64,000 bases of DNA from Candidatus Micrarchaeota archaeon. GTDB taxonomy: Archaea; Micrarchaeota; Micrarchaeia; Anstonellales; Bilamarchaeaceae. Below are positions 21,184-41,967 of this stretch, in pieces (positions within the stretch are counted from its first letter, which is position 1; every line of letters begins with the position of its first letter). The notes beneath the pieces were generated by a model that saw nothing but the letters and a program-made list of their open reading frames with translations, ran no database searches and was not told where the DNA came from. The stretch is taken from assembly GCA_016212525.1 (NCBI GenBank), contig JACRGD010000005.1, forward strand, positions 1,300 to 65,299. Direction: 5' to 3'. Both the position numbers and the translations under genes were made by a program.

Positions 21184-21305
21184 CGCCTCAGCCGGGATTC
21201 GAACCCGGGTCGCGAGAGTTCTATAAACGATTTAGTCAGTTTTTGATCAAACTTTTCTAAAAGTTTGTGACAGTCTCGTATGCTAGACCACTACACTACT
21301 GAGGC
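21184..21305 (-). tRNA. tRNA-Asp(GUC) with 49-nt intron at 37/38 (intron 21219-21267)
   Basis: Acceptor GCCTCAG/CTGAGGC, anticodon arm CGAGA-CTGTCA^C-TCTCG, T-arm CCGGG-TTCGAAT-CCCGG; BHB central helix CUGU/AUAG with two 3-nt bulges. Confidence 0.95.
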
Positions 21306-26735: not shown

Positions 26736-26865
26736 TCCCGCTTGCCTGATTTGAACAAGCAACCTTCCCGTCTCCGAGCGGCCTTTAGGCCGCGAAGGAA
26801 AAACCTCGTAAAAAATCGAGTCAATCAAACTACAGCGGGACGCTCTACCGTTGAGCTAAAGCGGG
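26736..26865 (-). tRNA. tRNA-Tyr(GUA) with 58-nt intron at 37/38 (intron 26772-26829)
   Basis: C1-G72 acceptor CCCGCTT/AAGCGGG, discriminator A, anticodon arm TCCCG-CTGTAG^A-CGGGA, T-loop TTCAAAT; relaxed BHB. Confidence 0.93.
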
Positions 26866-27007: not shown

Positions 27008-27682
27008 ATGGCCTCTAATACTAGGTTTGCCCCATCTGCTGTTGCTGCAAAACTTGAGCATTTGGGTTTTCGTTTCATTCATTTCGAAGATAAACCTACA
27101 TTCCAGAAGGATTTTGGCAATGCGTGTGTGCTTGTAGAATTACTTGATCGTCCCGAATCATCACTCCCAAGCCGTGTCGGAGGTGGTTTTCGTGTGCCCT
27201 TTGGAGTTGCTGGCGATTTTTCGCTTGATTATTCTCCTCCAGCATCATCTCGAACTGTGGATGATCCACATACAATATCCAGGATTCTTTATCAGCATGA
27301 TCTTGGCCCATCTGCCAGCGAAGCTTTGGTTCGGTCGCTTGGAACAAAAGACCATCTGGTTCTAGAAGATGGTTCTACCTACTGTGCTTTTTTGAATTCG
27401 GGGCTTGAATTGGAGCAAACAATTGCAGGTGCTCCTGTGCTCTCTTCCCGTTTGGATCAATTTGCCCGAAATCACGATGGTGTGTGTGCGATTTTGGAAG
27501 ATCTTGATGCCTATGCTCAGATTGATCCTGTGGCCCGTGGTCTTCTTAAGGTTAACAATCCTCATGGCGAATTGCTTAGTGCGTATTGTGATCGAATTGC
27601 CCAGCGTGTCTTGAGCAATGTTTATTCTTATCTCGAAGATTTATTGGGTCTTATTGCCGATCGTGCGGTCATCGATCTTTAA
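27008..27682 (+). CDS. Hypothetical protein, paralog of 37938-38624
   Basis: Shares AKL...GF, DFG.A..LVEL..R, ALVR.L.TKDH, DGSTYCA. Confidence 0.75.
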   Translation: MASNTRFAPSAVAAKLEHLGFRFIHFEDKPTFQKDFGNACVLVELLDRPESSLPSRVGGGFRVPFGVAGDFSLDYSPPASSRTVDDPHTISRILYQHDLGPSASEALVRSLGTKDHLVLEDGSTYCAFLNSGLELEQTIAGAPVLSSRLDQFARNHDGVCAILEDLDAYAQIDPVARGLLKVNNPHGELLSAYCDRIAQRVLSNVYSYLEDLLGLIADRAVIDL

Positions 27683-28119
27683 TGCCCGAACTTTAATTGT
27701 AGTTGCCTTTCTTGTCCCTGCGAATCTTTCACCTCATAAATCAGCCAGATAAAATCAGGTCTTCCTTCCTCTCCTTCGATTGGCCCGTCAACGGTTTTTC
27801 CATCCCAGCCATTTAGAACTAATCTTTTTGTTGGCTCGTATGGTTCGGTTTCCCATCTTTCCCAATCTTGAGAGCTTATTGTTTCTATTTTCCAGCTTCC
27901 ACTTGAGCTGCCAAACTGCCAATTTCCATCTTCTTTGATCTCAAGTTTGCGTGAACTTAGTTTACTATAATCTACTTCCCCCTTGTAGTTTGTAGTAGCC
28001 GGATATATTCTCCAGCTGCCAACTAAACCTGTTTCATCTTTAGAACTGTTCTCTGTACATCCAAAAATAATCAACAGTAAGAAAAATACGAATCCTAATG
28101 CGATCAGATTTTTTGTCAT
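27679..28119 (-). CDS. Putative lipoprotein
   Basis: MTKNLIALGFVFFLLLIIFGC lipobox-like signal; ATGA overlap with the upstream gene. Confidence 0.7.
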   Translation of the reverse strand: MTKNLIALGFVFFLLLIIFGCTENSSKDETGLVGSWRIYPATTNYKGEVDYSKLSSRKLEIKEDGNWQFGSSSGSWKIETISSQDWERWETEPYEPTKRLVLNGWDGKTVDGPIEGEEGRPDFIWLIYEVKDSQGQERQLQLKFGH

Positions 28120-28874
28120 TTTGTGGCCTCTGGGCACATTGGGGCACGTTCGCAATTGTGGCAAGCATTTTTCATTTTTGATTCAATAATTTTTGCATAT
28201 CTGTCTGCATCTGCCTGATTTATTGTGTTATCTGGGCCTGTAAGTTCGAAATTCGCAAATACATTTCCAATGTAGAACCTATATTCGTAAGCACTGATTT
28301 TTCCAGCCTGGGGATTTTCAGGGTCGTCAAAATTTACCAAAAATGCCGCGCTTCTATCTCCTAAATTTACGGCATTTTTAAGCTCAGTGGCGTTTTGGTC
28401 TCTAAAGTTTTTTATGATACTGTTCATCTGGCAGTCCATTTTAGACATGTTCTGGTAAAATGATAATCCTGCATATATGCTATTAAGTGGTCTTGACTCA
28501 TTGTCTAATTTTTCATAATATCTTTCATATACTGCAAACCATCCTGCTCTGGTTATGTTCTGTGCTTCTGCCGGATCTCCTGTATAATCTGTTGCATTAT
28601 ATGTCATGCCTGTTTTGTTTTGCCTTAGCATATAATCCAAAGGTATTTCATTCGAACTGAGACTGAATTCGACCATGTCCCCGGCTTCACGTACGAGTCT
28701 ATTTTTTTGGGGCATGATATTTGTGTTGCTCTCTGTCGTCTGATTTTTAGTAATGGTTTGACTATCAATCTGATCTGGTATCGTTGTTGTTTTTTCGTTT
28801 ACACAGCCTACGCTGAAAAGCATAATTAGTAATGCTCCTATTAGAATTCCGATTTTTCCAATGGGACGTTTCAT
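28116..28874 (-). CDS. Putative lipoprotein
   Basis: MKRPIGKIGILIGALLIMLFSVGC signal followed by a Thr-rich linker. Confidence 0.7.
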   Translation of the reverse strand: MKRPIGKIGILIGALLIMLFSVGCVNEKTTTIPDQIDSQTITKNQTTESNTNIMPQKNRLVREAGDMVEFSLSSNEIPLDYMLRQNKTGMTYNATDYTGDPAEAQNITRAGWFAVYERYYEKLDNESRPLNSIYAGLSFYQNMSKMDCQMNSIIKNFRDQNATELKNAVNLGDRSAAFLVNFDDPENPQAGKISAYEYRFYIGNVFANFELTGPDNTINQADADRYAKIIESKMKNACHNCERAPMCPEATK

Positions 28875-28924
28875 GTACTTTGAACCTGTGGAATGTTTTT
28901 ATATTTTCTCTTTGCTTGCAACTT

Positions 28925-31900
28925 GTGAAAAATTTAGATTTGATTTTTCTTGGTGTTGTTTTAATCGGACTGATTTTGGCAGGTGGATTTGTTTTTTTAA
29001 CTCCATCTGAGCTTAAGAACCCCTCTGGACAGGCATCTTCTCCAGGTACAAATATCCGTCCCACAATCAATCCTAATGACCTAGATGCCGATGGACTACC
29101 AGATAATCTGGATAATTGTCCTTCTATCAAAAATCCCTCTCAGGAAGATTCGGATTCCGATGGCAAGGGCGACCTGTGCGATATAAATCTATATACCAAT
29201 TTTGGAATATTTGATCCTGCTAACGAAACCTCTCCTATCCCATCCGAACTTATGGTCCAAAACGAAACTGGTTATTATCTTGTCCAGCTTTACGATCGTG
29301 CTGGCACCGAGAATATTCGCTCCAAAGGCGAAATTCTGGGTTCTGTTCCAAAAGATGCGCTAGTTTTGAAAACTGGCCTTAGTCTCTCTGATTTGAGATC
29401 GCTCCCCTATGTTCGGTATGTGCAGGTTTACCAGCCAGCATACAAGCTTTCCCAAGATCTCGTATCTCTCTATCGTGCTGGTCAGCTTTCAAAGAGTTCT
29501 CTGGATATCTGGGTCACTGTCTTTGGATCTGATTCGAGTGCTTTGGAAGATCTTTCTGCTTTTGGACGACCCAAAAAAGTTACTGATGCGGTTTTTGAAC
29601 TGTCTAATACAAGTGGCGTAGATGTTTTGTCCATCATAAAAATCCCCTCTGTTCAGTTTGTCGAACTAAAACCTCATGATGAACTTGCCAATGCAGTTGC
29701 ACAATCAACCGTTCATGTTATCGATCCTAGTGATGGCGTCTCAAACATTTACGGATTAACTGGTGCTGGCCAGTTCGTTGCTGTTGCAGATACTGGTCTT
29801 GATACTGGTGTGCTTGCCACGTTGAATCCTGATTTTGCCGGTCGTGTTGTTGGTACTTATTCTTCGTCCGTTATGAATTCAGCAGACCCAAATGCGCGTC
29901 CTCTTTGGAGCGATCTTTTTAGTGGCCACGGAACCCATGTTGCAGGAACTGTTTTGGGCAGTGGCGTAAACTCGGCCGGCGTCTGGAAAGGTGCTGCACC
30001 TTTGTCAAGTCTTATCTTCATGTCGATCGAGGGAACTGGCGGTGCCTGGTCTGGAGTGCCTGCTGATTTTAAGAAAATGCTGACTTTGGCATACTCTGAT
30101 CCAAACCGGCCAAAAATAATGACTAATAGCTGGGGTACTAGGGGTGTGTCTTATGGTACTCCAGCAAAACAACTCGATGAATACTCGTTCGATCATAAGG
30201 ATTTTCTTGTCTTATTTGCAGCTGGAAATGAAGGTCCTCTTGCAACTACTCTTCGTGATAAGGCACACTCAAAAAATGCCCTGGTGGTGGGAGCTAGCGA
30301 GAAACTAATGTTCACTACTGGAGGCGGGGTTTTTCCAAATTCTGACGATCTAAATGATATGGCAAACTTTAGCAGTCGTGGCCCTGCCCTTGGAGGCAGA
30401 ATAAAGCCAGATATATCCGCTCCCGGAACCTGGATATTTTCGGTTCGCTCAAGTGCTTGTCAGGGTGGCGCAAGTCCCTGTAATGGCTGGGGGCTTGCCG
30501 GTGGTCCTGTTGGCGGGGGTTTTGGTGTTCTTCCTGGTGGTGCTGCACTATCTCCAACTTATTTCTTTATGGGCGGAACTTCCATGGCTACTCCGCTTGT
30601 TGCCGGCTCGGCCGCTTTGACTCGTGAATATTATCAAAGATTCAAACGGTATTCGACTCCCTCTTCAGCACTAATAAAAGCAACTCTGATAAATGGCGCA
30701 GAAGATATGCCCTCAACCGGGAATGCCGGCTCTTCAACCGGTCCTATTCCAAATAATGATGAGGGATTTGGAAGGATGAATCTTGCAAATTCACTTTTTC
30801 CCGGCGGAACTCAAAATAGGATGAAATACTTTGAAGGTGCAAACTTCACAGATGATGAAGAAACGGACTATGTTTCTTATCTGATCCGGACAAATCAGCA
30901 GTTTCCCCTAAGCGCTACTTTGGTTTGGACTGATGATAATGGATATTTTGTGAGCAACGGTTTCCTGGTTAATGATCTGGATCTTAAGGCGACTTCCCCC
31001 TCTGGAATTAAATACGCCGGAAATCAGATTGGATTAGATGGACAATCGACTCCCAATTCTGCGGCTAAGGATTCGGTAAATAATGTCGAGCGAATTGTTC
31101 TTGGCGGATCAGGTCCCTCTGGCCATCCAGAAGATGGTTTTTACAATATAACTGTCCGCTCATACGATCTTTATGCATTGACTTCCGGACAGGACTATGC
31201 ACTTGTAGTTAGTCAGAGCGTCGGAGTTGACAGTGCATCCAAAACCCAGACCTATTGGTATAATTTTACCTCTAATGATGTTCGTGTAAGTGCGGTCGGG
31301 TTAAACTCGAACGAGAGTGTCGATGTTATTGTTCAATCTTTCAATGGTCCCTCTTATTGGCACAACGGAATCGTTCTTAACTCAAACATTACTTCAAATA
31401 TCACGACAATTAAAGCCGATGAAAACGGAACTATAAACTCCTCCTCATCATCGGTCTGGATCGCTCCTTCAAACTGGATTTATTATGGAGCTGGCGATGG
31501 TCGATACAACTTAGTTCTCGATCGAAAGACTCGGGGTACTTTTGAAATCAAGGACGATCTTGTTGATTACTATAATAAGACTGGTTTTAGGGTTCAGGCC
31601 ATCTCCGCAAGCGACAAAAACAAATCAATTCGCAAAATCTACACTTCTTCAGATCCATATGTCTATGCCTTTGGTGGTGGTTTTGCCCCCGCTGGAATTG
31701 CAGATATATATCTACTTCCCTCGCCCACTAGCGGGTTTGACCCGTTCTATCTCCGCTCGACTGTTGGTGCTGATGGTATAGGTTCATTTAATGTTCGCCT
31801 GCTTAGCAGTCCATCTAATTATATCTACAGATCTGCTCATGCAGATATCTATTCGATTCAGGCCGATACCAATACAACAAATGGTCTATTTAGGTCAGAA

Positions 31901-34900
31901 GAAGATAGCAAAGACCAGGTTTTAATTGATGAAATGGAGCGGGCGGTTTTATCAGCCCCGCTTTCAGAGGGGTCAGTTGGTCAGGGTGTAATACAGCTCC
32001 AATTTTTCCTAAATTCACAGTCTTTGCGGACCCCTGTGAACGGATCATTCTCAAGTGACACTAAAGATGCGCTTAACCTCTACTTCAAGAGTAGGGCGCT
32101 TCCAGAAGATGGGGCCGTACATTCATCAGATCTTCCTAAAATCCGCGATGATGCGCTAAGGAGTTTCCGGGTTTTTGCCACTGCTGCTACAAATGGGGCC
32201 GATCAGATACGAAGGGTTTTTGTTCCTCGTGAATCAGTCTATGCCCGCGGTGCAGGTTTGATTAGCGCAAAAAATGTAACTGTTTATGTAGTAAAGCACA
32301 ACGATTCGCTCAAAGATGGCGATTTACTTTCAGATGTATCAAGTGATGGGCCTAACATCGCAACTCCAAATGAAGCAGGCCTTTTCTCTAGTCTTTTGGT
32401 CTTTGATAATATCACTTCCTTCAATGTCGGCTATTACGATTTGATAATCGATACTGATGGAAATGGCAAATACAACTCAAGTGTCGATACAAAAGACGGA
32501 ATCGGCCTATATGCTCTTACGGAAGAGATTTCTTCCGGTTCAACAATTTCACTTAACTCCAGGGGCGATTCGATTTTTGAAGCAGAAACCTTCCTTAAGG
32601 TTTTTTGGAACCCGGTGATTGTTCCAGATCGGATCTTCGACTCCACATCTATTAGTGCTCTAGTTGCATATCAAAAGAGCCGAGGTCTTGCCCCAAACGG
32701 AATCATTGATAGAGAAACAATGGCCAAAATGAAATCCGAAGCATTGATCAGCTTCAGAATTGAGGCAGTAGAATCAAGTGATGATCAGGCCCAGATAAAA
32801 AGCGTTTTTATTCCTTATGAAAATCCAGTGGTTGAGCAGGATCCGGTTTGCACTAATGAAGATCGGCTTCGTGCTGCCAATGCACTTGAGGGTCTCCACA
32901 CTACTGTCGCGGAAAAACGGTCTTCGATCTATGCACTTGGCGGCGGATTCATCGCAAATAAAAAATCCAAGGTCTATGTAGTTAATGAGAGTTCCTGGAT
33001 TGATGGCAAGAAACTTAATGACGAATCCGGTGGTGCAGAGGAAATAGTTACTGATGCAAAAGGTCAGATAATTAATACTCAAATCTGGAAGGACATCGAG
33101 CGAAAAAATGCAGGGCTTTATGATGTTATTGTTGATGTGGACTCAGATGGCTACTTTAACGATTCGGTTGCCAGTAAAGATACGGCAGATCAACTAATCC
33201 CATGGGGACTAGCGATTCCAAAAGTCGATTCATCAGATCAAACTGGACAAATTAAAGATATCTTTATTGGAGATGATATGATCTATGCAAAGGGGATAGG
33301 GTTCCCCCCCGGCGAATCGTTCGATGTTTATGTTGTCAAAGATAATCGTTCGCTAAAAGATGGGGACGTGTTTAGTGAAAAGGACGTTTCCGAGCAAGTA
33401 GAAAAGGGTAGTGTTGCAGATGGCAAGGGCGAATTTTTAATTCCAGTTTGGCTTGAGACTAAAGTCGGACGCTATGATATTATTGTTGATCGGGACAAAA
33501 ACGGAATTTTCAATGGTACAATCGATGTGATCGATGCAGTAAAATCTACTGGCTTTGAGGTTCGGTCCAACTGGACCTTTATGGTCTATATGGCTGCTGA
33601 AAAAGATCTTCGGGACGAAGCGATCGCAGACCTAAACGAAATGGAATTAATCGGTTCGAACAAGCACGTTTCTGTAGTTGTACAAGTCGATACTTCTTCG
33701 AGCCCTAATGGAGCTACAACAATCGTGCAACAACTCAACTCCACACCAACCCGATTATATGTACGCAAAGATTCCGATCCAATCAAACTCAACTCAACTC
33801 TAATGATGCAGCTTCAGGAAACGAGTATGGGCAGTGCTGAGACATTGCTTGACTTTACAAAATGGGCATCATCCTGCTATCCTGGAGAAAACTATGTCCT
33901 TGTTTTATGGGGAGATGGGGATTCTTGGAAAGTGAATCCTTCAGTTCCCACTGGTCTTCTTACAGATACCGAACCAGCAAAGGATGCAATGGATATGAGC
34001 GAACTAAAGTCCGCAGCAGACTCGATGACTGCGTCTCTTAATGGAACTCGTCTTGGTATATTTGCATTCGATGCACCATTAATGGCCAGTGTTGAAGTTG
34101 CAGCTCAGATCAAGAATACCAGTGACATAATGGTTGCATCTGAGGGCACTAAAGCGGTTATTGGGAAAGAATCTCCCACCAAAAAAGGAACAATCGATTG
34201 GAATTATGAGGATGTTCTAAAACGCCTTAATCACAATCCAAAGCAGAGTATGCGTGACTTCTCAAAGGAGATCGTTGCGCATGCAAAAGACGCAAAACTC
34301 GACACGCTTTCATCTATCTCGCTAACTGGAATCGATGCCCTAATTAAGGAAATCGATTCGCTCGCTTCACCATCTAATTTACGTGGAAATATGATGCCCG
34401 ATTTCGCTCCTGCTTCCTGTCCGCCGTATCTTGGGTCAACTCGATCAGGTCTCTTTGATTACAATGGTGCGGATCAATATTCTGACAATGTCCAAATCGG
34501 TCTTCTTAAGGCAAGATTGGCAAGCCAGACCATGGGCGGAGTAATTGGTTATTCGGTTCAGAAATATGCATACGATCTGGATAATACTCCTGAGGGAGCA
34601 GCTCTTGCTCCTCTTAGACGGACAAAGGACGATCCGGTCTGGGGAGACATTGACATTGTTGATCTTTCTGACCTCTCATCAAAAATTGTCGCTTCCGGTG
34701 AAATTAAATCATCATACAAATCACATGCGCCGACAATTGTTTCTATGCTTGCAAAAGGCGGGCCGATAATTATTGATGAATACCATAGCCCAGCATTCGC
34801 CAATGCGTATGGCCTTTCCATTTACTACCCATTCCAGCAAAAGCGCTCTGGTGCCGATCCACTCCACGAATATTCTTACGATTCACCATCTGATCTTTCA

Positions 34901-36463
34901 TCGTCTATCTATCATTCGACTCCGGGGTTCATTTTCCCGACTAATAAAGGCGCGATTTGGTGGAAGGATGATTCGGATGATCCCAAAGGTCGTGTGTTAA
35001 AACGATACTATACTTCAGTTGCAGATGCCCAGCTTCTTGGTGGCGGAAAAATCAAGGAAGTTATTGTTCCAAGCTGCAATTATCTTAAGGTTTCAGTTAA
35101 GTTCTCAAGTCGTGGTTCGACTGATTCGGATTTCGAAGGGTTTGCCAGTTTTGGAGTAAAGAAAAACGCCCTATATTCCTGGAGTTTTGGTGATGGCGGC
35201 GGATGCACTGAGGCGTGGAATGATAAGGGCAATAATGACGGAATCGATCCTCCAAGCGAGACCTCAAGCTGTGATAAAGTCTTTGATGGATTGGTCGAGC
35301 ATACTTACGAAAAATGCGGTTGTTTTGTAGTTACTATGCAGACAACTGACGACGATGGTGAGTCCGATTCTGATTGGTTGTATGTGAAAATACAAGATGA
35401 TCCAACCTGGATTCCACCTCCTGATAACAGTTCGATAGTTCCCACCTGTGCTGATAACACAAGGACACCAGGTAAACCATACAATTCCTCAATCGCCCGC
35501 TTTATCTGTCATGATAATTGCGAGCAGATCTATGGTCCAGGGTACAAATGCGACCCAGAAGGCTGTTTCTGCAATCCGCCCAAGGTAATTAACGACACAA
35601 ATAGGACCAGAACAGGAAATGACACCTGGATAGCTCCTCGTTGCGGTGATGGGGTAATAACCCCTCCAGAGCAGTGCGATCCAGCAAGTAACGCCACAAA
35701 AGTCTGCACCAATTCAAAATCATGTACTCAAAATTGCGAATGCAAATATGTTGATACCAACCCTCCTTTCTGTGGTGATGGTCGTGTTACTGCACCTGAA
35801 GAGTGCGATCCTGGATCCAGATATACCGATGTCTGCTACAATGGAAATTCCTGTAATAGTTGCAGATGCAGTGCAAGTGTTATTCCTCCCCAAACCCATC
35901 GAGAATGCAGAAGTGGATCGTGCGTTAGTGTTAATGGGTCTGGTTCTGACAGTTGTAGTACTGATTTACAATGTCACCAAACCCAAACTCCGCAAACTCA
36001 CCGGATCTGTAGTTCCGGTTCATGCGTTTCTGTTTCCGGTTCCGGATCTGACCAGTGCACCAGTAATTCGCAGTGTATAGATACTACTCCCATGCACAGT
36101 GCCTGTGATTTTGAGACTCATTCATGCATGGTAGTTGAGGGGCCCGGTTCGAATTCGTGTACTTCTAATTCAGATTGCAGTCCTCCGGTTGTCAACTGTT
36201 CGGTTTATTGTAGTGAACAGGGCTATTCACAAAGTCTTGGAAGCGGATATTCGACTCAGTCTTCCTGCAATGCTGCCGCTGCAGAAGAACCAATAAGCTG
36301 CACTACTACCTGTGTTTATACTAAATTTTACAGCACCTCAAATACTGCCGGAACTACTACTTGCTGCTGCAAGGCCAAAAAACAGTTTATCTGCACAAAT
36401 TGTCCTGGACAAAACCCACAATGTCCAGTTCCAGAAACAATTTGCCCTGCTAATGCTCCTTAA
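28925..36463 (+). CDS. Giant secreted multidomain S8 (subtilisin-like) peptidase with TSP3 repeat, five beta-repeats, two peptidoglycan-binding-like modules, inactive clostripain (C11) domain, PKD-like domain and Cys-rich tail
   Basis: GTG start plus N-terminal TM; DADGLPDNLDNCP; triad VADTG / HGTHVAG / GTSMATP; NWTFMVYMAA; YSWSFGDG; CGDG...EQCD repeats. Confidence 0.9.
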   Translation: MKNLDLIFLGVVLIGLILAGGFVFLTPSELKNPSGQASSPGTNIRPTINPNDLDADGLPDNLDNCPSIKNPSQEDSDSDGKGDLCDINLYTNFGIFDPANETSPIPSELMVQNETGYYLVQLYDRAGTENIRSKGEILGSVPKDALVLKTGLSLSDLRSLPYVRYVQVYQPAYKLSQDLVSLYRAGQLSKSSLDIWVTVFGSDSSALEDLSAFGRPKKVTDAVFELSNTSGVDVLSIIKIPSVQFVELKPHDELANAVAQSTVHVIDPSDGVSNIYGLTGAGQFVAVADTGLDTGVLATLNPDFAGRVVGTYSSSVMNSADPNARPLWSDLFSGHGTHVAGTVLGSGVNSAGVWKGAAPLSSLIFMSIEGTGGAWSGVPADFKKMLTLAYSDPNRPKIMTNSWGTRGVSYGTPAKQLDEYSFDHKDFLVLFAAGNEGPLATTLRDKAHSKNALVVGASEKLMFTTGGGVFPNSDDLNDMANFSSRGPALGGRIKPDISAPGTWIFSVRSSACQGGASPCNGWGLAGGPVGGGFGVLPGGAALSPTYFFMGGTSMATPLVAGSAALTREYYQRFKRYSTPSSALIKATLINGAEDMPSTGNAGSSTGPIPNNDEGFGRMNLANSLFPGGTQNRMKYFEGANFTDDEETDYVSYLIRTNQQFPLSATLVWTDDNGYFVSNGFLVNDLDLKATSPSGIKYAGNQIGLDGQSTPNSAAKDSVNNVERIVLGGSGPSGHPEDGFYNITVRSYDLYALTSGQDYALVVSQSVGVDSASKTQTYWYNFTSNDVRVSAVGLNSNESVDVIVQSFNGPSYWHNGIVLNSNITSNITTIKADENGTINSSSSSVWIAPSNWIYYGAGDGRYNLVLDRKTRGTFEIKDDLVDYYNKTGFRVQAISASDKNKSIRKIYTSSDPYVYAFGGGFAPAGIADIYLLPSPTSGFDPFYLRSTVGADGIGSFNVRLLSSPSNYIYRSAHADIYSIQADTNTTNGLFRSEEDSKDQVLIDEMERAVLSAPLSEGSVGQGVIQLQFFLNSQSLRTPVNGSFSSDTKDALNLYFKSRALPEDGAVHSSDLPKIRDDALRSFRVFATAATNGADQIRRVFVPRESVYARGAGLISAKNVTVYVVKHNDSLKDGDLLSDVSSDGPNIATPNEAGLFSSLLVFDNITSFNVGYYDLIIDTDGNGKYNSSVDTKDGIGLYALTEEISSGSTISLNSRGDSIFEAETFLKVFWNPVIVPDRIFDSTSISALVAYQKSRGLAPNGIIDRETMAKMKSEALISFRIEAVESSDDQAQIKSVFIPYENPVVEQDPVCTNEDRLRAANALEGLHTTVAEKRSSIYALGGGFIANKKSKVYVVNESSWIDGKKLNDESGGAEEIVTDAKGQIINTQIWKDIERKNAGLYDVIVDVDSDGYFNDSVASKDTADQLIPWGLAIPKVDSSDQTGQIKDIFIGDDMIYAKGIGFPPGESFDVYVVKDNRSLKDGDVFSEKDVSEQVEKGSVADGKGEFLIPVWLETKVGRYDIIVDRDKNGIFNGTIDVIDAVKSTGFEVRSNWTFMVYMAAEKDLRDEAIADLNEMELIGSNKHVSVVVQVDTSSSPNGATTIVQQLNSTPTRLYVRKDSDPIKLNSTLMMQLQETSMGSAETLLDFTKWASSCYPGENYVLVLWGDGDSWKVNPSVPTGLLTDTEPAKDAMDMSELKSAADSMTASLNGTRLGIFAFDAPLMASVEVAAQIKNTSDIMVASEGTKAVIGKESPTKKGTIDWNYEDVLKRLNHNPKQSMRDFSKEIVAHAKDAKLDTLSSISLTGIDALIKEIDSLASPSNLRGNMMPDFAPASCPPYLGSTRSGLFDYNGADQYSDNVQIGLLKARLASQTMGGVIGYSVQKYAYDLDNTPEGAALAPLRRTKDDPVWGDIDIVDLSDLSSKIVASGEIKSSYKSHAPTIVSMLAKGGPIIIDEYHSPAFANAYGLSIYYPFQQKRSGADPLHEYSYDSPSDLSSSIYHSTPGFIFPTNKGAIWWKDDSDDPKGRVLKRYYTSVADAQLLGGGKIKEVIVPSCNYLKVSVKFSSRGSTDSDFEGFASFGVKKNALYSWSFGDGGGCTEAWNDKGNNDGIDPPSETSSCDKVFDGLVEHTYEKCGCFVVTMQTTDDDGESDSDWLYVKIQDDPTWIPPPDNSSIVPTCADNTRTPGKPYNSSIARFICHDNCEQIYGPGYKCDPEGCFCNPPKVINDTNRTRTGNDTWIAPRCGDGVITPPEQCDPASNATKVCTNSKSCTQNCECKYVDTNPPFCGDGRVTAPEECDPGSRYTDVCYNGNSCNSCRCSASVIPPQTHRECRSGSCVSVNGSGSDSCSTDLQCHQTQTPQTHRICSSGSCVSVSGSGSDQCTSNSQCIDTTPMHSACDFETHSCMVVEGPGSNSCTSNSDCSPPVVNCSVYCSEQGYSQSLGSGYSTQSSCNAAAAEEPISCTTTCVYTKFYSTSNTAGTTTCCCKAKKQFICTNCPGQNPQCPVPETICPANAP

Positions 36464-36647: not shown

Positions 36648-37091
36648 TTAATCCTTCTCAATCTCAGAAAGTATTGCCCATATTGGCAATAAAGAAACCC
36701 CAAGTGTGAAAATTACTAAGCTGCCAACATACATTATGCCTAATATCGATGTAATTATGTTCTCTATAGAAAACGAAGAAAGTCCTATGGAATAAACATT
36801 TAGTCTGTCTAATAACGTAACTAATATCGCACCTACAATGCCCGCTGCTATATTTTCAAATAGTCTTTCTAGTCTTCCTCTATTCTCTTTTTTATATTTT
36901 TTTAGCAGGTACAGGCCGATGGCAATCCCGATTAGTATCAACAGCACAAATATTATCCAGACTATGAGTTCTTTTATGAATGAAAATTCCCCGGGTGTGA
37001 ATATATAAATGATTGTTAAAACTAAAATTAGACTTATCAGTACCAGAAATATTATTCCGGTTTGTTTTGGTGTATCCTTCTTTTGAGCCAC
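36648..37091 (-). CDS. Hypothetical 4-TM membrane protein
   Basis: Four hydrophobic segments. Confidence 0.65.
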   Translation of the reverse strand: MAQKKDTPKQTGIIFLVLISLILVLTIIYIFTPGEFSFIKELIVWIIFVLLILIGIAIGLYLLKKYKKENRGRLERLFENIAAGIVGAILVTLLDRLNVYSIGLSSFSIENIITSILGIMYVGSLVIFTLGVSLLPIWAILSEIEKD

Positions 37092-37201
37092 TAAACTATC
37101 ATTTGCTAAAAATTATTAAATTCTCGGTTGTCTCAACACTGTTCTTTTGGGCGCTATTATCAACCTCAATCTTTTTATCCTTCTTACTTATTTATCCATT
37201 C

Positions 37202-37834
37202 ATGCTTAATCTTTCTCTTTCGGACAATTCAGGCAAATTTCTGATTCTTTCAAATCTCATTTCCCTATGTTTTGCCATTATCTTTGGCTTTGACCTGGGT
37301 TCTTTGATGTGGTTGTATCTTCTAGAGAGTATTCTGATCGGCTTTTTCACATTCCTTTCGCTCCCGATAATTGCCTTTCGAACTAGAAATCTCTTCGCAA
37401 TAGGACTAAGTGTTTTCCTCTCTTTTTTCTTTCTTTTTCACTATGGCGGTTTTCATTTCGTCTATCTTATTTTCCTGTCTGTTCTTCCTTACTTTAAAAT
37501 TAAGATTCCTCTTTTTGAATTTTTCCTGTCTTTACTTCCTCTTTTTTTATCTCATGCATATTCCTTTTTTGAACATGTCCTTTTTAGCAACGATCCAGCG
37601 GATTCCCAGTTGGATATTGGATCAGTTGCATCTAAATTTATTGCTCCCTATTCAAGAATTCTCCCAATGCACCTCACCATTATTTTCTCTGGATTTTTGG
37701 TTGTCTTTGTAGGTCCTGGGGAGTTGGCAACAAAGCTGATTCTCATTGTTTTTATGGTTCTAAAAATCGTTGCAGATCTACACTTTCACAATGTAAAACA
37801 CGGACTTAAGTTTACTACTTTGAATTTTGACTGA
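37202..37834 (+). CDS. Membrane protein, DUF6498-like
   Basis: LY.LES..IG, FF.FHYGGF..V, PYSRILPMH..II, K...D..FH. Confidence 0.7.
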   Translation: MLNLSLSDNSGKFLILSNLISLCFAIIFGFDLGSLMWLYLLESILIGFFTFLSLPIIAFRTRNLFAIGLSVFLSFFFLFHYGGFHFVYLIFLSVLPYFKIKIPLFEFFLSLLPLFLSHAYSFFEHVLFSNDPADSQLDIGSVASKFIAPYSRILPMHLTIIFSGFLVVFVGPGELATKLILIVFMVLKIVADLHFHNVKHGLKFTTLNFD

Positions 37835-37937
37835 TGTTCGTTTGTCCTTTGAAGCTATCGTCATGCGTTTTTGTGTTATTTAATGTTTATTTGATAACTT
37901 ATATAAACTCATTGTTACATAAATGATAACGAATACC

Positions 37938-38624
37938 ATGGTCTTTATACCTAACAATCCTGTTACTGCTTCTGTTGTTGCAAAGTTAGTTGGAAAGGGA
38001 TTTTATTCTGTATCCGTGGGCAACAAATCTGCCTTCAGATCTGATTTTGGTCGTGCTAGCTTGTTGGTTGAATTGAGCAACCGCGTGTCTGATGAAGCTC
38101 CAACTCGCATAGCCACTACTTCTGCATTTGGTTTGGCTCACTCAGAAGATTCTCATACTCTGGCAGTTTCTGGTCTCTCGCTTGGCAAGCCCTCTTTGAA
38201 TGTTGATGTTTCAGCTATCAAAAGAATTGCTTATTTACATGGTCTAGGGTCAGTTTCTGTCGATGCTTTGGTTCGAATTTTATCTACTAAGGATCATCAG
38301 GCTATTGGAGCGGATGGCTCTACTTACTGTGCGATTATCGATCCCACTTTGGATATTGATCGTTTGGTTGGTTCTGTTGGCGGTCTATCAGTCGCACTTG
38401 AGGCATTCGCCTCTTCACAATGTCCAGTTCAAGCACTTCATGCATACGATGCGGCTGTTGCTCTTAATGCTGCTGCCCAGTCTATGACTGCAAATGAAAA
38501 TTACCACGCAACTACCGTTCAAGCTTATTCGGCTGCATTTCTAAACAATGCTTTAGAATTAATCAATTCTTATGTTGGAACCTTATTGTACATTATAAAG
38601 GATCGCTCGGAATTCAGTTATTGA
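37938..38624 (+). CDS. Hypothetical protein, paralog of 27008-27682
   Basis: Motif sharing with 27008; start set by alignment of the shared upstream element. Confidence 0.75.
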   Translation: MVFIPNNPVTASVVAKLVGKGFYSVSVGNKSAFRSDFGRASLLVELSNRVSDEAPTRIATTSAFGLAHSEDSHTLAVSGLSLGKPSLNVDVSAIKRIAYLHGLGSVSVDALVRILSTKDHQAIGADGSTYCAIIDPTLDIDRLVGSVGGLSVALEAFASSQCPVQALHAYDAAVALNAAAQSMTANENYHATTVQAYSAAFLNNALELINSYVGTLLYIIKDRSEFSY

Positions 38625-39418: not shown

Positions 39419-39919
39419 ATGATTCGAAAAACCCACTTCCTGGTGATAATCGTTTTCTTTTTGGTATTCACAACTGCCGTTTACTCGGCTAGTTGCGCGC
39501 AAAAAAGCTATACGACTTCGTGTTTAAAATGTACTTTTGATAAAGATGGAAAAATGGATCAGGCCTGTTATCAGAAATATCAGGATAGTGGAGTGGCATG
39601 TCTTTTTTCTGCCTACCCAATCGAAAGCATACAATACAAAATGGGTAACTGTCCGGCTATCGATGTCTGTGTGGATCGGCTCAACACTTGCAAAGCACTC
39701 TATACTCAGGGTAATGACAAATTCGATTGCGATTCCGATTCCATAAATCACTGTTTTGTACGTGGGGATGCGTGTGTTGCACGGGCTGTTAAAGACTGTA
39801 GCGGAACTCCACCTGGAGATCTGGCTAATGATTTGCCTCCGGCAAGTTTTTGCGATGGATTTTTCTTTTTCATTGCATTATTTGCCGGCTTGTTATTTGT
39901 GAAAAATAGAAGGGTCTGA
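39419..39919 (+). CDS. Cys-rich secreted protein with C-terminal membrane anchor
   Basis: Signal peptide, 13 Cys, ends C-DG-hydrophobic stretch-KNRRV. Confidence 0.7.
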   Translation: MIRKTHFLVIIVFFLVFTTAVYSASCAQKSYTTSCLKCTFDKDGKMDQACYQKYQDSGVACLFSAYPIESIQYKMGNCPAIDVCVDRLNTCKALYTQGNDKFDCDSDSINHCFVRGDACVARAVKDCSGTPPGDLANDLPPASFCDGFFFFIALFAGLLFVKNRRV

Positions 39920-39957: not shown

Positions 39958-41967
39958 ATGAAAAATCTTCCAGTAAAACGAATCGTGTTCTATAAACATG
40001 GTGTTGGGCATATCGAGCGAAGAGGTAAAATTTCCGATTCCTCGATCGATCTGAGTTTTCCCGTCTCATCTATGAATGACATTCTCAAAAGCCTCACGGT
40101 TATTGATGGCTCGGGTAAGGTCGTGTGCGTCAGCTATGATTCTCATCGGCCAACAAGTGAGCTGATGAAAAATGCACTTGTAATTCCAGATGGCGAGGGT
40201 TTGGTGGGACTGCTCAGGATGCTCGTTGGAGAAGAAATCAAGATCGTGGCCACTAAGACCTTTGCCGGTAAGGTTGTTTCTGTTTCAGAGCAATCACTGG
40301 ATCTTGGATCTGACAATAGTGTTGTGATCAATTCCGAGCTTTCTGTTTCCGCCCAGCTCTCACTAATGGCAGCAGACGGCTCGATCGATCTTATCACAGT
40401 TTCGGATATCAAATCCCTCGAAATCCTTTCTTCCTCTGTAGTAGATGATCTTAAATATTTCCTTGAACTCTCATCTTCTTCAAGAAAGGACGGCATAAAA
40501 AACGTGACCGTTGTACTTGACAACCAGAAATCCCACGACCTTAGCATCAGCTATCTTTCAGAAATGCCGATCTGGCGGGTTTCCTATCGATTTGTCTATG
40601 AAAAAAACAATTCTCTTATTCAGGGTTGGGGTATTGTAGACAATCCATTGCAGGAAGATCTCGAAAACATAGAAGTAAGTTTGGTTGCTGGCCAGCCGGT
40701 TTCATTTGTCTATGATTTCTACGCTCCTCCGTTGGCCAATCGTCCTTATATCTGCGAGCAGCCACGGGCAGTTGCGAATGCAGTCGAGTTTGATGTTGCA
40801 TCCCAGCCTGCCCCTGCGCCATATAAAATGGCAGAATCCGCGGATTATGCTTCTGAGAATGAGGCTGCCGGGCCACGGGATCGCTCTCGAGCCAGTCCCA
40901 AAATGGCCATGTCTCCCGCCTCTTATGCTCCAGGTGCTGGTTTTGCACCTTCCATGTCTTCCTCATCAATGCAATCGAGCATTTCTAGCTCTGCATCAGG
41001 AGCTCAGGTTGGCTCGTTCTTCAAATATGATGTTTTGACACCCGTGACGATCAAGCGGGGTCAGAGTTCGATGCTTCCTATTTTGGGTCAGAAGATCGCT
41101 GCTGATCGTCTTTTACTTTACAATTATGATAAGAATCCAAGCAACCCTGTTGTCTCGCTTCGATTTTTGAACAAGACCGGACTTACTCTCGAGCGCGGGC
41201 CGCTCACTGTCTTTGAAGAAGGAAGTTATGCAGGCGAGGCTATTTTGGCATTTACTGAGTCTGGCGCAGAGCAGATAATTGCATATGCAACTGAGCTGGG
41301 AGTCAAAATCGACCGGAGTTCGAGCACATCGAGCGAATTCAAGTCTGCATATCTTTCGGGCTGGTATCTTATTACTATAAACTTCGAGAAAAGTTACTTC
41401 ACATATCGAATCCAGAACAACAAACCCACGCCTGTTTCGGTCATGGTTGAGCATCCAAAGTCCTCGGGATACGTGCTCCTGGATACCAAAAAACCCGATG
41501 AAGAAACCGCAACAACTTATCGGTGGAAAGTAGACGTTCCTGCGTCCAAATTTGTCGAGTTCCAGGTCATTTTAACTAGAGAAACATCATACAGCGAGCA
41601 TTTGCAAAATCTTTCCGGATCTATAATCGAGAGTTATATGCATAATGGCAGGCTTTCGAAAGATCTCTTTGCTAAACTTGGCTACTCGAGCACCCGGTAT
41701 CAGAAAATAAAAGACCTTAATCAGGAAAAACTGGACTTAGAGGCCGAGCGAAAGCGATTTTTGGAGGAACAGAGTCGTCTGCGTGAGAATATCTCTTCGC
41801 TTTCCAATTCGATGGAAGAAGCTGCCCTGCGTAAGAAATATGTGGCTCAGATGGATTCTCAGGAAACCCGAATACAACAAATTCAAAAGCGTGTTACTGA
41901 GATTGAATCTACAATTAGGACCTTGAACAAGGAAATTGCAGATTTCGTTGCTACTTTATCTAAGTAA
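39958..41967 (+). CDS. DUF4140/DUF4139-like protein with C-terminal coiled coil
   Basis: LPVKRIVFYKHGVG, MNDILKSL, W..SYR, GW.IVDN, TGLTLERGP, EQSRLRENI. Confidence 0.75.
   Translation: MKNLPVKRIVFYKHGVGHIERRGKISDSSIDLSFPVSSMNDILKSLTVIDGSGKVVCVSYDSHRPTSELMKNALVIPDGEGLVGLLRMLVGEEIKIVATKTFAGKVVSVSEQSLDLGSDNSVVINSELSVSAQLSLMAADGSIDLITVSDIKSLEILSSSVVDDLKYFLELSSSSRKDGIKNVTVVLDNQKSHDLSISYLSEMPIWRVSYRFVYEKNNSLIQGWGIVDNPLQEDLENIEVSLVAGQPVSFVYDFYAPPLANRPYICEQPRAVANAVEFDVASQPAPAPYKMAESADYASENEAAGPRDRSRASPKMAMSPASYAPGAGFAPSMSSSSMQSSISSSASGAQVGSFFKYDVLTPVTIKRGQSSMLPILGQKIAADRLLLYNYDKNPSNPVVSLRFLNKTGLTLERGPLTVFEEGSYAGEAILAFTESGAEQIIAYATELGVKIDRSSSTSSEFKSAYLSGWYLITINFEKSYFTYRIQNNKPTPVSVMVEHPKSSGYVLLDTKKPDEETATTYRWKVDVPASKFVEFQVILTRETSYSEHLQNLSGSIIESYMHNGRLSKDLFAKLGYSSTRYQKIKDLNQEKLDLEAERKRFLEEQSRLRENISSLSNSMEEAALRKKYVAQMDSQETRIQQIQKRVTEIESTIRTLNKEIADFVATLSK

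What the first reader, a model, noticed from the sequence alone, without database searches (positions are those of the whole stretch)
31958..32735. Peptidoglycan-binding-like modules in an archaeal secreted protease
Seen: the 2.5-kaa subtilase carries LSEGSVGQGVIQLQFFL...NGSFSSDTKDAL (about 31958-32150) and LNSRGDSIFEAETFL...DRIFDSTSISALVAYQKSRGLAPNGII (about 32545-32735). Known: these match the PG_binding_1 pattern L..GS.G..V..LQ..L...DG.F...T..A...FQ...GL..DG.., and most archaea make no murein. Inference: the enzyme may dock on bacterial walls, or methanogen pseudomurein, for predation, scavenging or host attachment.
Basis: partly seen in the sequence, partly recalled or inferred. Interest (0 to 1): 0.85.

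Follow-up and report, generated by a model that had tools for sequence, protein, structure and literature searches.

The report
Wall-binding modules in giant archaeal protease
A 2,543-residue surface protease of a small-genome archaeon really does carry two copies of the module that bacteria and phages use to grip bacterial cell wall, which hints, without proving, that this archaeon docks on bacterial walls.

Summary
ORF 28832..36463 (+) encodes a 2,543-aa protein. Pfam finds a Peptidase_S8 domain, one PG_binding_1 (PF01471) hit above the curated cut-off (module 2, residues 1245-1300, 36.5 bits vs 23) and a C11 domain. Module 1 alone scores only 15 bits. It is still real: the same position scores 23.9 bits in a 47%-identical orthologue, 12 of 12 family members hit PF01471, and a family profile matches solved wall-hydrolase PGB domains through module 1. 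An AlphaFold model (pLDDT 81) gives two helical bundles that superpose on SleB, phiKZ gp144, SleC and CtpB domains (Z 12-13, rmsd 1.2-1.7 Å). The host is an archaeon. Its 90%-complete genome showed no Mur-type ligase (the one Mur_ligase_M hit is FolC) and none of the four murein-hydrolase families searched, nor LysM or PMBR. What the modules bind is untested. Murein docking is the best reading (about 0.5), and a structural or dimerising role as in CtpB is the main rival. PG_binding_1 in archaea is already published, fused to peptidoglycan hydrolases (PMC12352652). The fusion to a subtilase is a new variant. The C11 domain has lost its catalytic His and Cys.

The parts
28832..36463 (+). Whole ORF, 2,543 aa (P0001): giant multidomain subtilase. 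A database gene call starts 31 codons later (2,512 aa, P0002).
28940..28999 (+). N-terminal hydrophobic stretch (residues 37-56): presumed signal peptide or membrane anchor
   Evidence: read. Similar stretches are in P0003-P0007. This is inference; no predictor was run.
29075..29143 (+). Thrombospondin type 3 (calcium-binding) repeat, residues 82-104
   Evidence: 24.5 bits, just under the cut-off of 25; 52-57 bits in orthologues
29762..30730 (+). Peptidase_S8 catalytic domain, residues 311-633, with the Asp, His and Ser motifs present
   Evidence: 140.8 bits; motifs DTGL, HGTHV and GTSMATP
31928..32155 (+). PGB module 1, residues 1033-1108: four-helix (1+3) bundle
   Evidence: CtpB C-terminal domain Z 12.5, rmsd 1.7 Å over 79 residues; SleC Z 12.0
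32177..32491 (+). Beta-sandwich (Ig/macroglobulin-like) domain between the two modules, residues 1116-1220. Paralogous copies lie at residues 1363-1450 and 1473-1570.
   Evidence: (Z 8-9 to complement MG domains, neocarzinostatin and archaeal S-layer proteins: generic)
32510..32740 (+). PGB module 2, residues 1227-1303: four-helix (1+3) bundle, with the PF01471 hit at residues 1245-1300
   Evidence: SleB N-domain 6tci Z 13.0, rmsd 1.2 Å over 73 of 73 residues
33584..34369 (+). Clostripain-like (C11) domain, residues 1585-1846, with the catalytic His position reading Asp and the Cys position reading Pro: probable pseudo-peptidase
35162..35368 (+). PKD-like domain, residues 2111-2179
   Evidence: 23.0 bits, just under the cut-off of 23.5
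35447..36460 (+). Cysteine-rich C-terminal repeats: 42 Cys in residues 2206-2538, no Pfam match

Best explanation
The gene encodes a membrane-anchored or secreted giant subtilase of a small-genome archaeon. Its extracellular stalk alternates Ig-like beta-sandwich domains with two paralogous PG_binding_1-fold modules. After these come a catalytically dead clostripain-like domain, a PKD-like domain and a cysteine-rich tail. SHOWN: the domain identities, the fold of both modules, their conservation across a small protein family, the archaeal host, and that no Mur-type ligase was found in its genome. INFERRED: the two modules act as a bivalent anchor for bacterial peptidoglycan, on living cells or on wall debris. 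This would hold the single active protease (S8) against a foreign, protein-rich surface so that the archaeon can harvest peptides or stay attached to a bacterial partner or prey.
For: Module 2 passes Pfam's curated cut-off (36.5 vs 23 bits). Module 1 passes it in the orthologue P0003 (23.9 bits). 12 of 12 family segments hit PF01471. A scan of 1.84 billion representatives with the 293-aa region gave 618 hits at E <= 1e-3. Nine non-family hits were scanned with Pfam, and all 9 are proteins with 3-11 tandem PG_binding_1 repeats. Such hits are reached by module 1 as well as module 2. The family profile hits 7 of 7 solved PGB domains of murein-active enzymes at E <= 0.01: 5tv7, 4xxt, 7rum, 3bkh, 9xps, 1lbu, 6tci. 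The model has pLDDT 81 with two helical bundles. VIA-align gives SleB 6tci Z 13.0, rmsd 1.2 Å over 73/73 for module 2, and SleC 9h68 Z 12.0 for module 1. The modules are as conserved as the rest of the protein: 48% identity in the region against 47% overall. The host is an archaeon. Its only Mur_ligase_M hit is FolC (TIGR01499, 370 bits), so any murein target would be foreign. Tandem PG_binding_1 domains in archaeal secreted enzymes have been tied experimentally to killing of bacteria (PMC12352652, passages read). The S8 domain keeps its triad motifs. An N-terminal hydrophobic stretch, TSP3, PKD and Cys-rich repeats argue for an extracellular location. N-X-S/T sequons number 37 against 24.5 +/- 4.5 in shuffles.
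Against: No binding was measured or can be computed here. The PGB fold is not diagnostic of murein binding. The best structural match of module 1 is the C-terminal domain of the protease CtpB (Z 12.5), and in that protein the domain mediates dimerisation (PMC3808539). At the sequence-profile level module 2's nearest solved relative is also CtpB, though weakly (E 0.015). The repeated DGxxGxxTxxxPho motif is described as important for ligand recognition (PMC12547810). Here it is degenerate: the second Gly is mostly Asp in all four half-motifs, and the Thr is lost in the second half of module 1 (0 of 12 sequences). The genome showed no SLT, Amidase_2, M23, NlpC/P60 or LysM, so there is no accompanying wall-lytic toolkit. 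Subtilases are not known (my recall) to cut murein itself. Ten PGB-bearing ORFs from related genomes were scanned: eight showed only PG_binding-type domains, one has a C39-like peptidase and one a sub-threshold CBM58 hit. The VIA-align notes warn that Z near 13 for helical bundles can reflect a common arrangement.
Confidence: 0.5

Rival explanations
1. The PGB-fold modules are structural or protein-protein interaction units (dimerisation, stalk rigidity, or regulation of the protease), as in CtpB or the matrix-metalloproteinase propeptide. On this reading they bind no cell-wall polymer.
For: Module 1's top structural match is the CtpB C-terminal domain (Z 12.5, rmsd 1.7 Å over 79 residues). 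Module 2's profile hits CtpB at E 0.015. The CtpB paper states that this 4-helix domain resembles the gp144 PGB domain and the pro-MMP-2 propeptide 'despite distinct function' and forms the dimer interface (PMC3808539). Both modules here also have a fourth, N-terminal helix. The ligand motif is degenerate. No murein hydrolase was found in the genome.
Against: At E <= 0.01 the family profile hits only PGB domains of murein-active enzymes (7 of 7), and no MMP appears even at E <= 10. The modules lie about 400 residues downstream of the S8 domain, and the neighbouring C11 domain is dead, so a propeptide-like inhibitory role has no obvious active partner.
Confidence: 0.25
2. The modules bind a polymer of the archaeon's own envelope or of an archaeal host (S-layer glycan, or pseudomurein of a methanogen). 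This would retain the protease at its own surface or attach the cell to an archaeal partner.
For: PF01471 also rings in Methanosarcina acetivorans, which (my recall) has neither murein nor pseudomurein, so archaeal PGB modules need not target murein (control lines). All genomes listed in the phylum sample are 0.6-1.6 Mb, the size range of host-dependent archaea (inference). The beta domains resemble archaeal S-layer domains weakly (7ptp, 8qox, Z 7.7-8.8).
Against: The genome has no pseudomurein-type ligase and no PMBR repeat. The known pseudomurein-binding module is PMBR, not PG_binding_1 (my recall). In the published survey only two of the archaeal PGH homologues come from the pseudomurein-making classes (PMC12352652). 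No data here link the organism to a methanogen.
Confidence: 0.2
3. The resemblance is chance or an annotation artefact, and there are no real PGB modules.
For: Module 1 alone is below Pfam's cut-off (15 bits, E 0.029). Foldseek E-values for the multidomain model are all above 0.001.
Against: Module 2 scores 36.5 bits, E 5.6e-9. The position is conserved in orthologues, and 12 of 12 family members hit the family. Structural matches cover whole domains at rmsd 1.2-1.7 Å.
Confidence: 0.02

Closest known systems
PG_binding_1 (PF01471) cell-wall binding domains of bacterial and phage murein hydrolases (SleB, SleC, phiKZ gp144/KZ144, AP3 endolysin, Streptomyces Zn DD-peptidase)
   Same: Same Pfam family and same helical-bundle fold, with whole-domain superposition at Z 11-13 and rmsd 1.2-2.1 Å. 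Tandem use of two copies also occurs.
   Different: Here the modules are attached to a subtilase, not to a murein hydrolase. They are buried in the middle of a 2,543-aa protein between Ig-like domains. The host is an archaeon, and the DGxxGxxT motif has Asp in place of the second Gly.
Archaeal modular peptidoglycan hydrolases Woldo and Danwoldo of Halogranum salarium (PMC12352652)
   Same: Archaeal, secreted, and carrying two PG_binding_1 domains. The host makes no murein, so the target is taken to be bacterial (passages read).
   Different: Those proteins carry an M23 or glucosaminidase catalytic domain and are small. This one has no peptidoglycan-hydrolase domain in Pfam, so it falls outside that survey's definition of a modular PGH. 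Its catalytic activity would be on proteins, not on murein.
Bacillus subtilis CtpB (S41 protease with a C-terminal PGB-like domain)
   Same: A serine protease carrying a 4-helix PGB-like domain, and the best structural match of module 1.
   Different: CtpB is an S41 PDZ protease of about 450 aa in which the domain forms a dimer interface. Here there are two copies in an S8 protein, and dimerisation is untested.
Clostripain family C11 peptidases (PDB 6n9j, 9cip)
   Same: The C11 domain aligns over about 190 residues, at 86 bits in Pfam.
   Different: The positions aligned to the His and Cys motifs of the solved enzymes read Asp and Pro. The same holds in P0003, P0004 and P0005. Other archaeal and bacterial C11 relatives keep the Cys motif. 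That these are the catalytic residues is my recall of the family.

Membership tests
PG_binding_1 (PF01471) | Score above Pfam's curated gathering cut-off (23 bits) | tested here: met
   Module 2 scores 36.5 bits in the whole protein and 33.9 bits alone. Module 1 alone scores 15.0 bits, which does not pass. The orthologous module 1 of P0003 scores 23.9 bits, and two stretches match in P0004, P0005 and P0007.
PG_binding_1 (PF01471) | Bundle of three antiparallel helices (as described in PMC5674055, and PMC12547810) | tested here: met
   The model shows helices 22-33, 46-58 and 69-79, and helices 217-229, 242-254 and 265-274, each set preceded by a short extra helix. Superposition on 6tci, 9h68, 5nm7, 1lbu and 3bkh gives Z 11-13. 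This is a predicted structure, not a solved one.
PG_binding_1 (PF01471) | Two repeats of the motif DGxxGxxTxxxPho (PMC12547810) | tested here: inconclusive
   Across the 12 family sequences the Thr and the hydrophobic residue are kept in three of the four half-motifs. The Thr is invariant in half 1 of module 1 and present in 11 of 12 in half 2 of module 2. It is absent (0 of 12) in half 2 of module 1. The second Gly is mostly Asp throughout.
PG_binding_1 (PF01471) | Binds peptidoglycan | not testable with these tools
   Needs a sacculus pull-down or muropeptide binding assay.
Subtilases (Peptidase_S8, PF00082) | Asp-His-Ser catalytic triad in conserved motifs | tested here: met
   PF00082 scores 140.8 bits. 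The motifs are DTGL at 320, HGTHV at 366 and GTSMATP at 582.
Clostripain family (Peptidase_C11, PF03415) | Catalytic His-Cys dyad | tested here: not met
   The domain matches at 86.3 bits. In alignments to 6n9j and 9cip the His position is Asp and the Cys position is Pro. This is shared by P0003, P0004 and P0005. It is a homologue by fold and sequence but not an active member.
Modular peptidoglycan hydrolases of archaea (sensu PMC12352652) | At least one PGH catalytic domain plus one cell-wall-binding domain | tested here: not met
   Pfam finds S8, C11, PKD, TSP3 and PG_binding_1 only, with no PGH catalytic domain.
Pseudomurein-binding proteins (PMBR, PF09373) | PMBR repeats | tested here: not met
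   The protein has no PMBR hit at E <= 1, and the genome has none at E <= 0.01.

The most novel reading that the evidence does not exclude
A small-genome (DPANN-type) archaeon uses a membrane-anchored, roughly 2,500-residue subtilase as a grappling hook. Two murein-binding modules on an Ig-domain stalk would fasten it to bacterial cell walls, so that the archaeon lives on, or feeds from, bacteria rather than other archaea. This would be a cross-domain episymbiosis or predation mediated by a protease rather than a wall hydrolase.
Probability: 0.2. Interest if true: 0.8.

Novelty: new variant of a known kind. Interest (0 to 1): 0.45.

Why it matters
Archaea of this size class are thought to depend on partner cells, but their partners and attachment molecules are mostly unknown. 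If a surface protease carrying bacterial-wall-binding modules does bind murein, it would point to bacteria as partners or prey. It would also give a concrete, expressible handle (two roughly 75-residue modules) for fishing out the target. Archaeal anti-bacterial weaponry is so far known from peptidoglycan hydrolases and a phospholipase (listing), and this would extend it to wall-targeted proteases. If the modules prove to be structural, the finding is an ordinary case of domain re-use.

Tried and rejected
Homodimer test: complex prediction with two copies of the 293-aa PGB-Ig-PGB region (alignment A1) returned 'no answer' (score 0.00, mark 0.42). It says nothing for or against dimerisation.

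ESM Atlas look-alike search with residues 640-1580 gave no usable hit.

The search for related loci with alignment A1 failed because no stretch was conserved enough. With the whole protein it returned 11 loci, all relatives of the C11 part only (26-31% identity), in Methanosarcinales, Methanobacteriota, DHVE2-group and Methanomassiliicoccus MAGs, Microseira and others. It returned no S8+PGB relative and no name for the window's own organism.

Foldseek on the three-domain model gave no match at E <= 0.001. The top rows were nevertheless PGB domains (6tci, TM 0.85 normalised to the target). The VIA-align second look resolved both modules.

The ligand-motif test could not discriminate function.

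The gene neighbours are uninformative. ORFs 27008-27682, 28116-28874, 37923-38624, 39419-39919 and 39958-41967 have no Pfam hit at E <= 0.001 beyond a sub-cut-off Snapin_Pallidin match on the last, and 37013-37834 is DUF6498.

A horizontally acquired island was considered and not supported. GC of the gene region (0.43-0.44) is within the window's range of 0.385-0.464, and intron-bearing tRNAs flank it.

Literature: searches (terms DPANN / peptidoglycan-binding / subtilisin; PG_binding_1 / archaea) listed no paper describing an archaeal S8 protease with PG_binding_1 modules. This covers only the held library. The supplementary tables of PMC12352652 (S2 Table of archaeal PGHs) could not be seen and may list relatives or this lineage.

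The second structure job, the look-up of sequencing runs, read laying and the metagenome and viral scans were not used.
Full report
**The gene.** The finding lies inside one very long open reading frame, window 28832..36463 on the + strand, 2,543 codons. A database gene call of the same protein starts 31 codons later (P0002, 2,512 aa). Pfam places the following along it:
- a thrombospondin type 3 repeat (residues 82-104, 24.5 bits, just under the cut-off);
- Peptidase_S8 (311-633, 140.8 bits);
- PG_binding_1 (1245-1300, 36.5 bits against a cut-off of 23, E 5.6e-9);
- Peptidase_C11 (1585-1846, 86.3 bits);
- a PKD-like stretch (2111-2179, 23.0 bits, just under the cut-off).

The last 340 residues hold 42 cysteines in repeats that match no Pfam family.

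**The observation.** Module 2 is a clean, full-length PF01471 match (profile positions 2-57 of 57). Related sequences settle it:
- The closest full-length homologue, P0003 (2,565 aa, 47% identical over the whole length), has its PF01471 hit on module 1 (1022-1069, 23.9 bits).
- P0004, P0005 and P0007 each match PF01471 in two stretches.
- Within the window's protein, module 2 aligns to module 1 at 31.6% identity over 74 residues (E 2.5e-6), so they are paralogues.
- I aligned the 293-residue PGB-Ig-PGB region of the window with 11 relatives (A1, 30-46% identical to the window's segment). All 12 rows hit PF01471.
- A profile of A1 hits seven solved structures at E <= 0.01, every one a PGB domain of a murein-active enzyme (5tv7, 4xxt, 7rum, 3bkh, 9xps, 1lbu, 6tci), and every one through module-1 positions 10-89.
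- Relaxing to E <= 10 adds the CtpB protease through module 2 (E 0.015), a SleB prepeptide and the AP3 endolysin, plus weak unrelated rows (atlastin-3, an affibody). No matrix metalloproteinase appears.

**Fold.** AlphaFold2 with A1 gave a model of mean pLDDT 81.1. Helices lie at 4-12, 22-33, 46-58 and 69-79. A beta-sandwich spans 87-178. Helices lie again at 198-205, 217-229, 242-254 and 265-274. Foldseek against the PDB gave no row at E <= 0.001 for this three-domain query, but rank 1 was the SleB N-terminal domain (TM 0.85 normalised to the target, rmsd 1.0 Å). VIA-align on Foldseek's top 1,000 separated the two modules:
- Module 2 (model 194-279) matches SleB 6tci (Z 13.0, rmsd 1.2 Å, 73 of 73 residues), AP3 endolysin, 4xxt, 5tv7, 1lbu, an L,D-transpeptidase and phiKZ gp144 (Z 11.2-11.9).
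- Module 1 (model 1-83) matches the C-terminal domain of CtpB (Z 12.5, rmsd 1.7 Å, 79 residues), SleC (Z 12.0) and the PGB domains of YcbB and LdtA.
- The tool warns that Z near 13 for helical bundles can be a common arrangement. Here the matches cover whole domains, are all of one family, and agree with the sequence statistics.
- The middle domain gives only generic Ig/macroglobulin-like matches (Z 8-9).

**The organism.** The window is part of a 1.47-Mb assembly of 10 contigs, 89.6% complete. Several results place it among the archaea:
- Its SSU rRNA scores 1419 bits on the archaeal model, which wins over the other SSU models of the clan.
- Two tRNA genes in the window are 122 and 130 nt long, that is intron-bearing. 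Rfam finds them but ARAGORN in bacterial mode does not.
- A geranylgeranyl reductase gene lies 3 kb upstream.
- The gene's GC content does not stand out.

No tool gave a name. The genomes listed from its order and phylum are 0.6-2.0 Mb, which fits a DPANN-type lineage. That is my inference, not a result. The window also holds carbamoyl-phosphate synthase, PurH and AMP phosphorylase, so the organism is not maximally reduced.

**Cell-wall genes in the genome.** The only Mur_ligase_M match is a FolC (TIGR01499, 370 bits). No SLT, Amidase_2, Peptidase_M23, NlpC/P60, LysM or PMBR match was found at E <= 0.01. All of this carries the caveat of 89.6% completeness. So the archaeon probably makes neither murein nor pseudomurein, and it also has no recognisable wall-lytic enzymes from the families searched. 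It has three S8 genes, and only this one carries PGB modules.

**Distribution.**
- The 293-aa region found 618 proteins at E <= 1e-3 among 1.84 billion representatives, 13 of them at E <= 1e-30.
- Those 13 include the protein itself and a family with the same layout. Of the 5 that I scanned whole (P0003-P0007), 5 have S8 plus PG_binding_1 and 3 also have C11.
- Most of the weaker hits listed align to one PGB module and some to the beta-sandwich only. I scanned 9 of the module hits, and all 9 have 3 to 11 tandem PG_binding_1 repeats.
- Among species-representative genomes the region occurs in 3 of 176 genomes of the order, all in the window's own genus.
- PF01471 as such occurs in 11 of 61 relatives and in 27 of 401 sampled genomes of the phylum.
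- Ten such ORFs from relatives were scanned. Eight show only PG_binding-type domains, one adds a C39-like peptidase, and one adds a sub-threshold CBM58 hit.

**What is known.**
- PLoS Biol 2025 (PMC12352652; I read the passages returned by 'find') reports modular peptidoglycan hydrolases in 175 of 3,706 archaeal genomes, prominent in Nanoarchaeota, Thermoplasmatota and Halobacteriota. It describes two Halogranum enzymes with tandem PG_binding_1 domains, in a strain whose supernatant kills bacteria. So PG_binding_1 in archaea, and its reading as a bacterial-wall anchor, are already in print.
- That survey required a hydrolase catalytic domain, which this protein lacks.
- The Cell 2013 CtpB paper (PMC3808539, passages) says the C-terminal 4-helix domain of that protease resembles the gp144 PGB domain and the pro-MMP-2 propeptide 'despite distinct function' and forms the dimer interface.
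- PMC12547810 (passages) gives the family's hallmark as a three-helix fold with two repeats of DGxxGxxTxxxPho.
- In A1 the Thr and the hydrophobic residue are kept in three of the four half-motifs. The second Gly is mostly Asp, and the Thr of the second half of module 1 is absent in 12 of 12 sequences.

**Mechanism.** Shown: domain identities, fold, paralogy, family conservation, archaeal host, and no Mur-type ligase found. Inferred: the protein is exported and possibly stays tethered by its N-terminal hydrophobic stretch (residues 37-56; similar stretches in the 5 homologues printed). The S8 domain, with intact Asp, His and Ser motifs, is the only active protease. The two PGB modules, spaced by an Ig-like domain, give bivalent attachment to bacterial peptidoglycan, so that the protease works on, or the cell stays on, a bacterial surface or wall debris. 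I put this at about 0.5. The main rival (0.25) is that the modules are structural or dimerising, as in CtpB. A further 0.2 goes to binding of another envelope polymer, whether its own, an archaeal host's, or pseudomurein. Nothing here points to pseudomurein in particular.

**A by-product.** The C11 domain is very likely a pseudo-peptidase. Aligned to the solved C11 enzymes 6n9j and 9cip, the residue under the His of their 'SHG' motif is Asp, and the residue under the Cys of their 'FDAC' motif is Pro. The same substitutions, or Ser for the His position in P0005, occur in P0003, P0004 and P0005. Five other C11 relatives from named archaeal and bacterial records keep the Cys motif (L018, L019, L021, L022, L027). 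That these two positions are the catalytic dyad is my recall of the family.

**Verdict.** This is a new variant of a known kind, namely an archaeal wall-binding module on a protease rather than on a wall hydrolase. Interest is moderate (0.45). It would rise sharply if murein binding and an association with bacteria were shown.

Noticed in passing
window 33584-34369 (+), residues 1585-1846 of the ORF: The clostripain-like C11 domain has Asp at the position aligned to the catalytic His and Pro at the position aligned to the catalytic Cys of solved C11 enzymes. The loss is shared by the three other long-form family members, while five other C11 relatives keep the Cys motif. It is a conserved pseudo-peptidase domain of unknown role.
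   Followed up: partly
window 21184-21305 (-) and 26736-26865 (-): Two tRNA genes of 122 and 130 nt (intron-bearing) are found by Rfam (53.6 and 52.3 bits) but missed by ARAGORN in bacterial mode.
   Followed up: no
window 35447-36460 (+), residues 2206-2543: A cysteine-rich C-terminal tail holds 42 Cys in about 340 residues. It contains two 'CGDG...CD' type units and three near-identical units of about 34 residues. It has no Pfam match.
   Followed up: no
window 28832-28925 (+) versus 28116-28874 (-): The start codon is ambiguous. The first ATG (28832) overlaps the upstream minus-strand ORF by 43 nt. The database gene call begins 31 codons later, at about 28925, which removes the overlap and puts the hydrophobic stretch near the N-terminus.
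   Followed up: partly
window 32177-32491, about 32918-33181 and 33248-33541 (+): Three paralogous beta-sandwich domains (36-38% identical to one another) flank the PGB modules. Family members also show a beta+PGB unit upstream, so the stalk seems to have grown by duplication of a beta-PGB unit.
   Followed up: partly
whole ORF 28832-36463: N-X-S/T sequons number 37, against 24.5 +/- 4.5 in 200 shuffles of the same protein (about 2.8 sd). This fits a glycosylated surface protein.
   Followed up: no
L014 (G056:C1:1-1976), ORF 225-980: In a genome of the same order, a 252-aa ORF joins PG_binding_1 to a C39-like cysteine peptidase. This is another peptidase-PGB fusion in this group of archaea.
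   Followed up: no
window 37013-37834 (+): The first ORF of 150 aa or more downstream of the giant protease is a DUF6498 protein (116 bits). The other close neighbours have no Pfam match.
   Followed up: no
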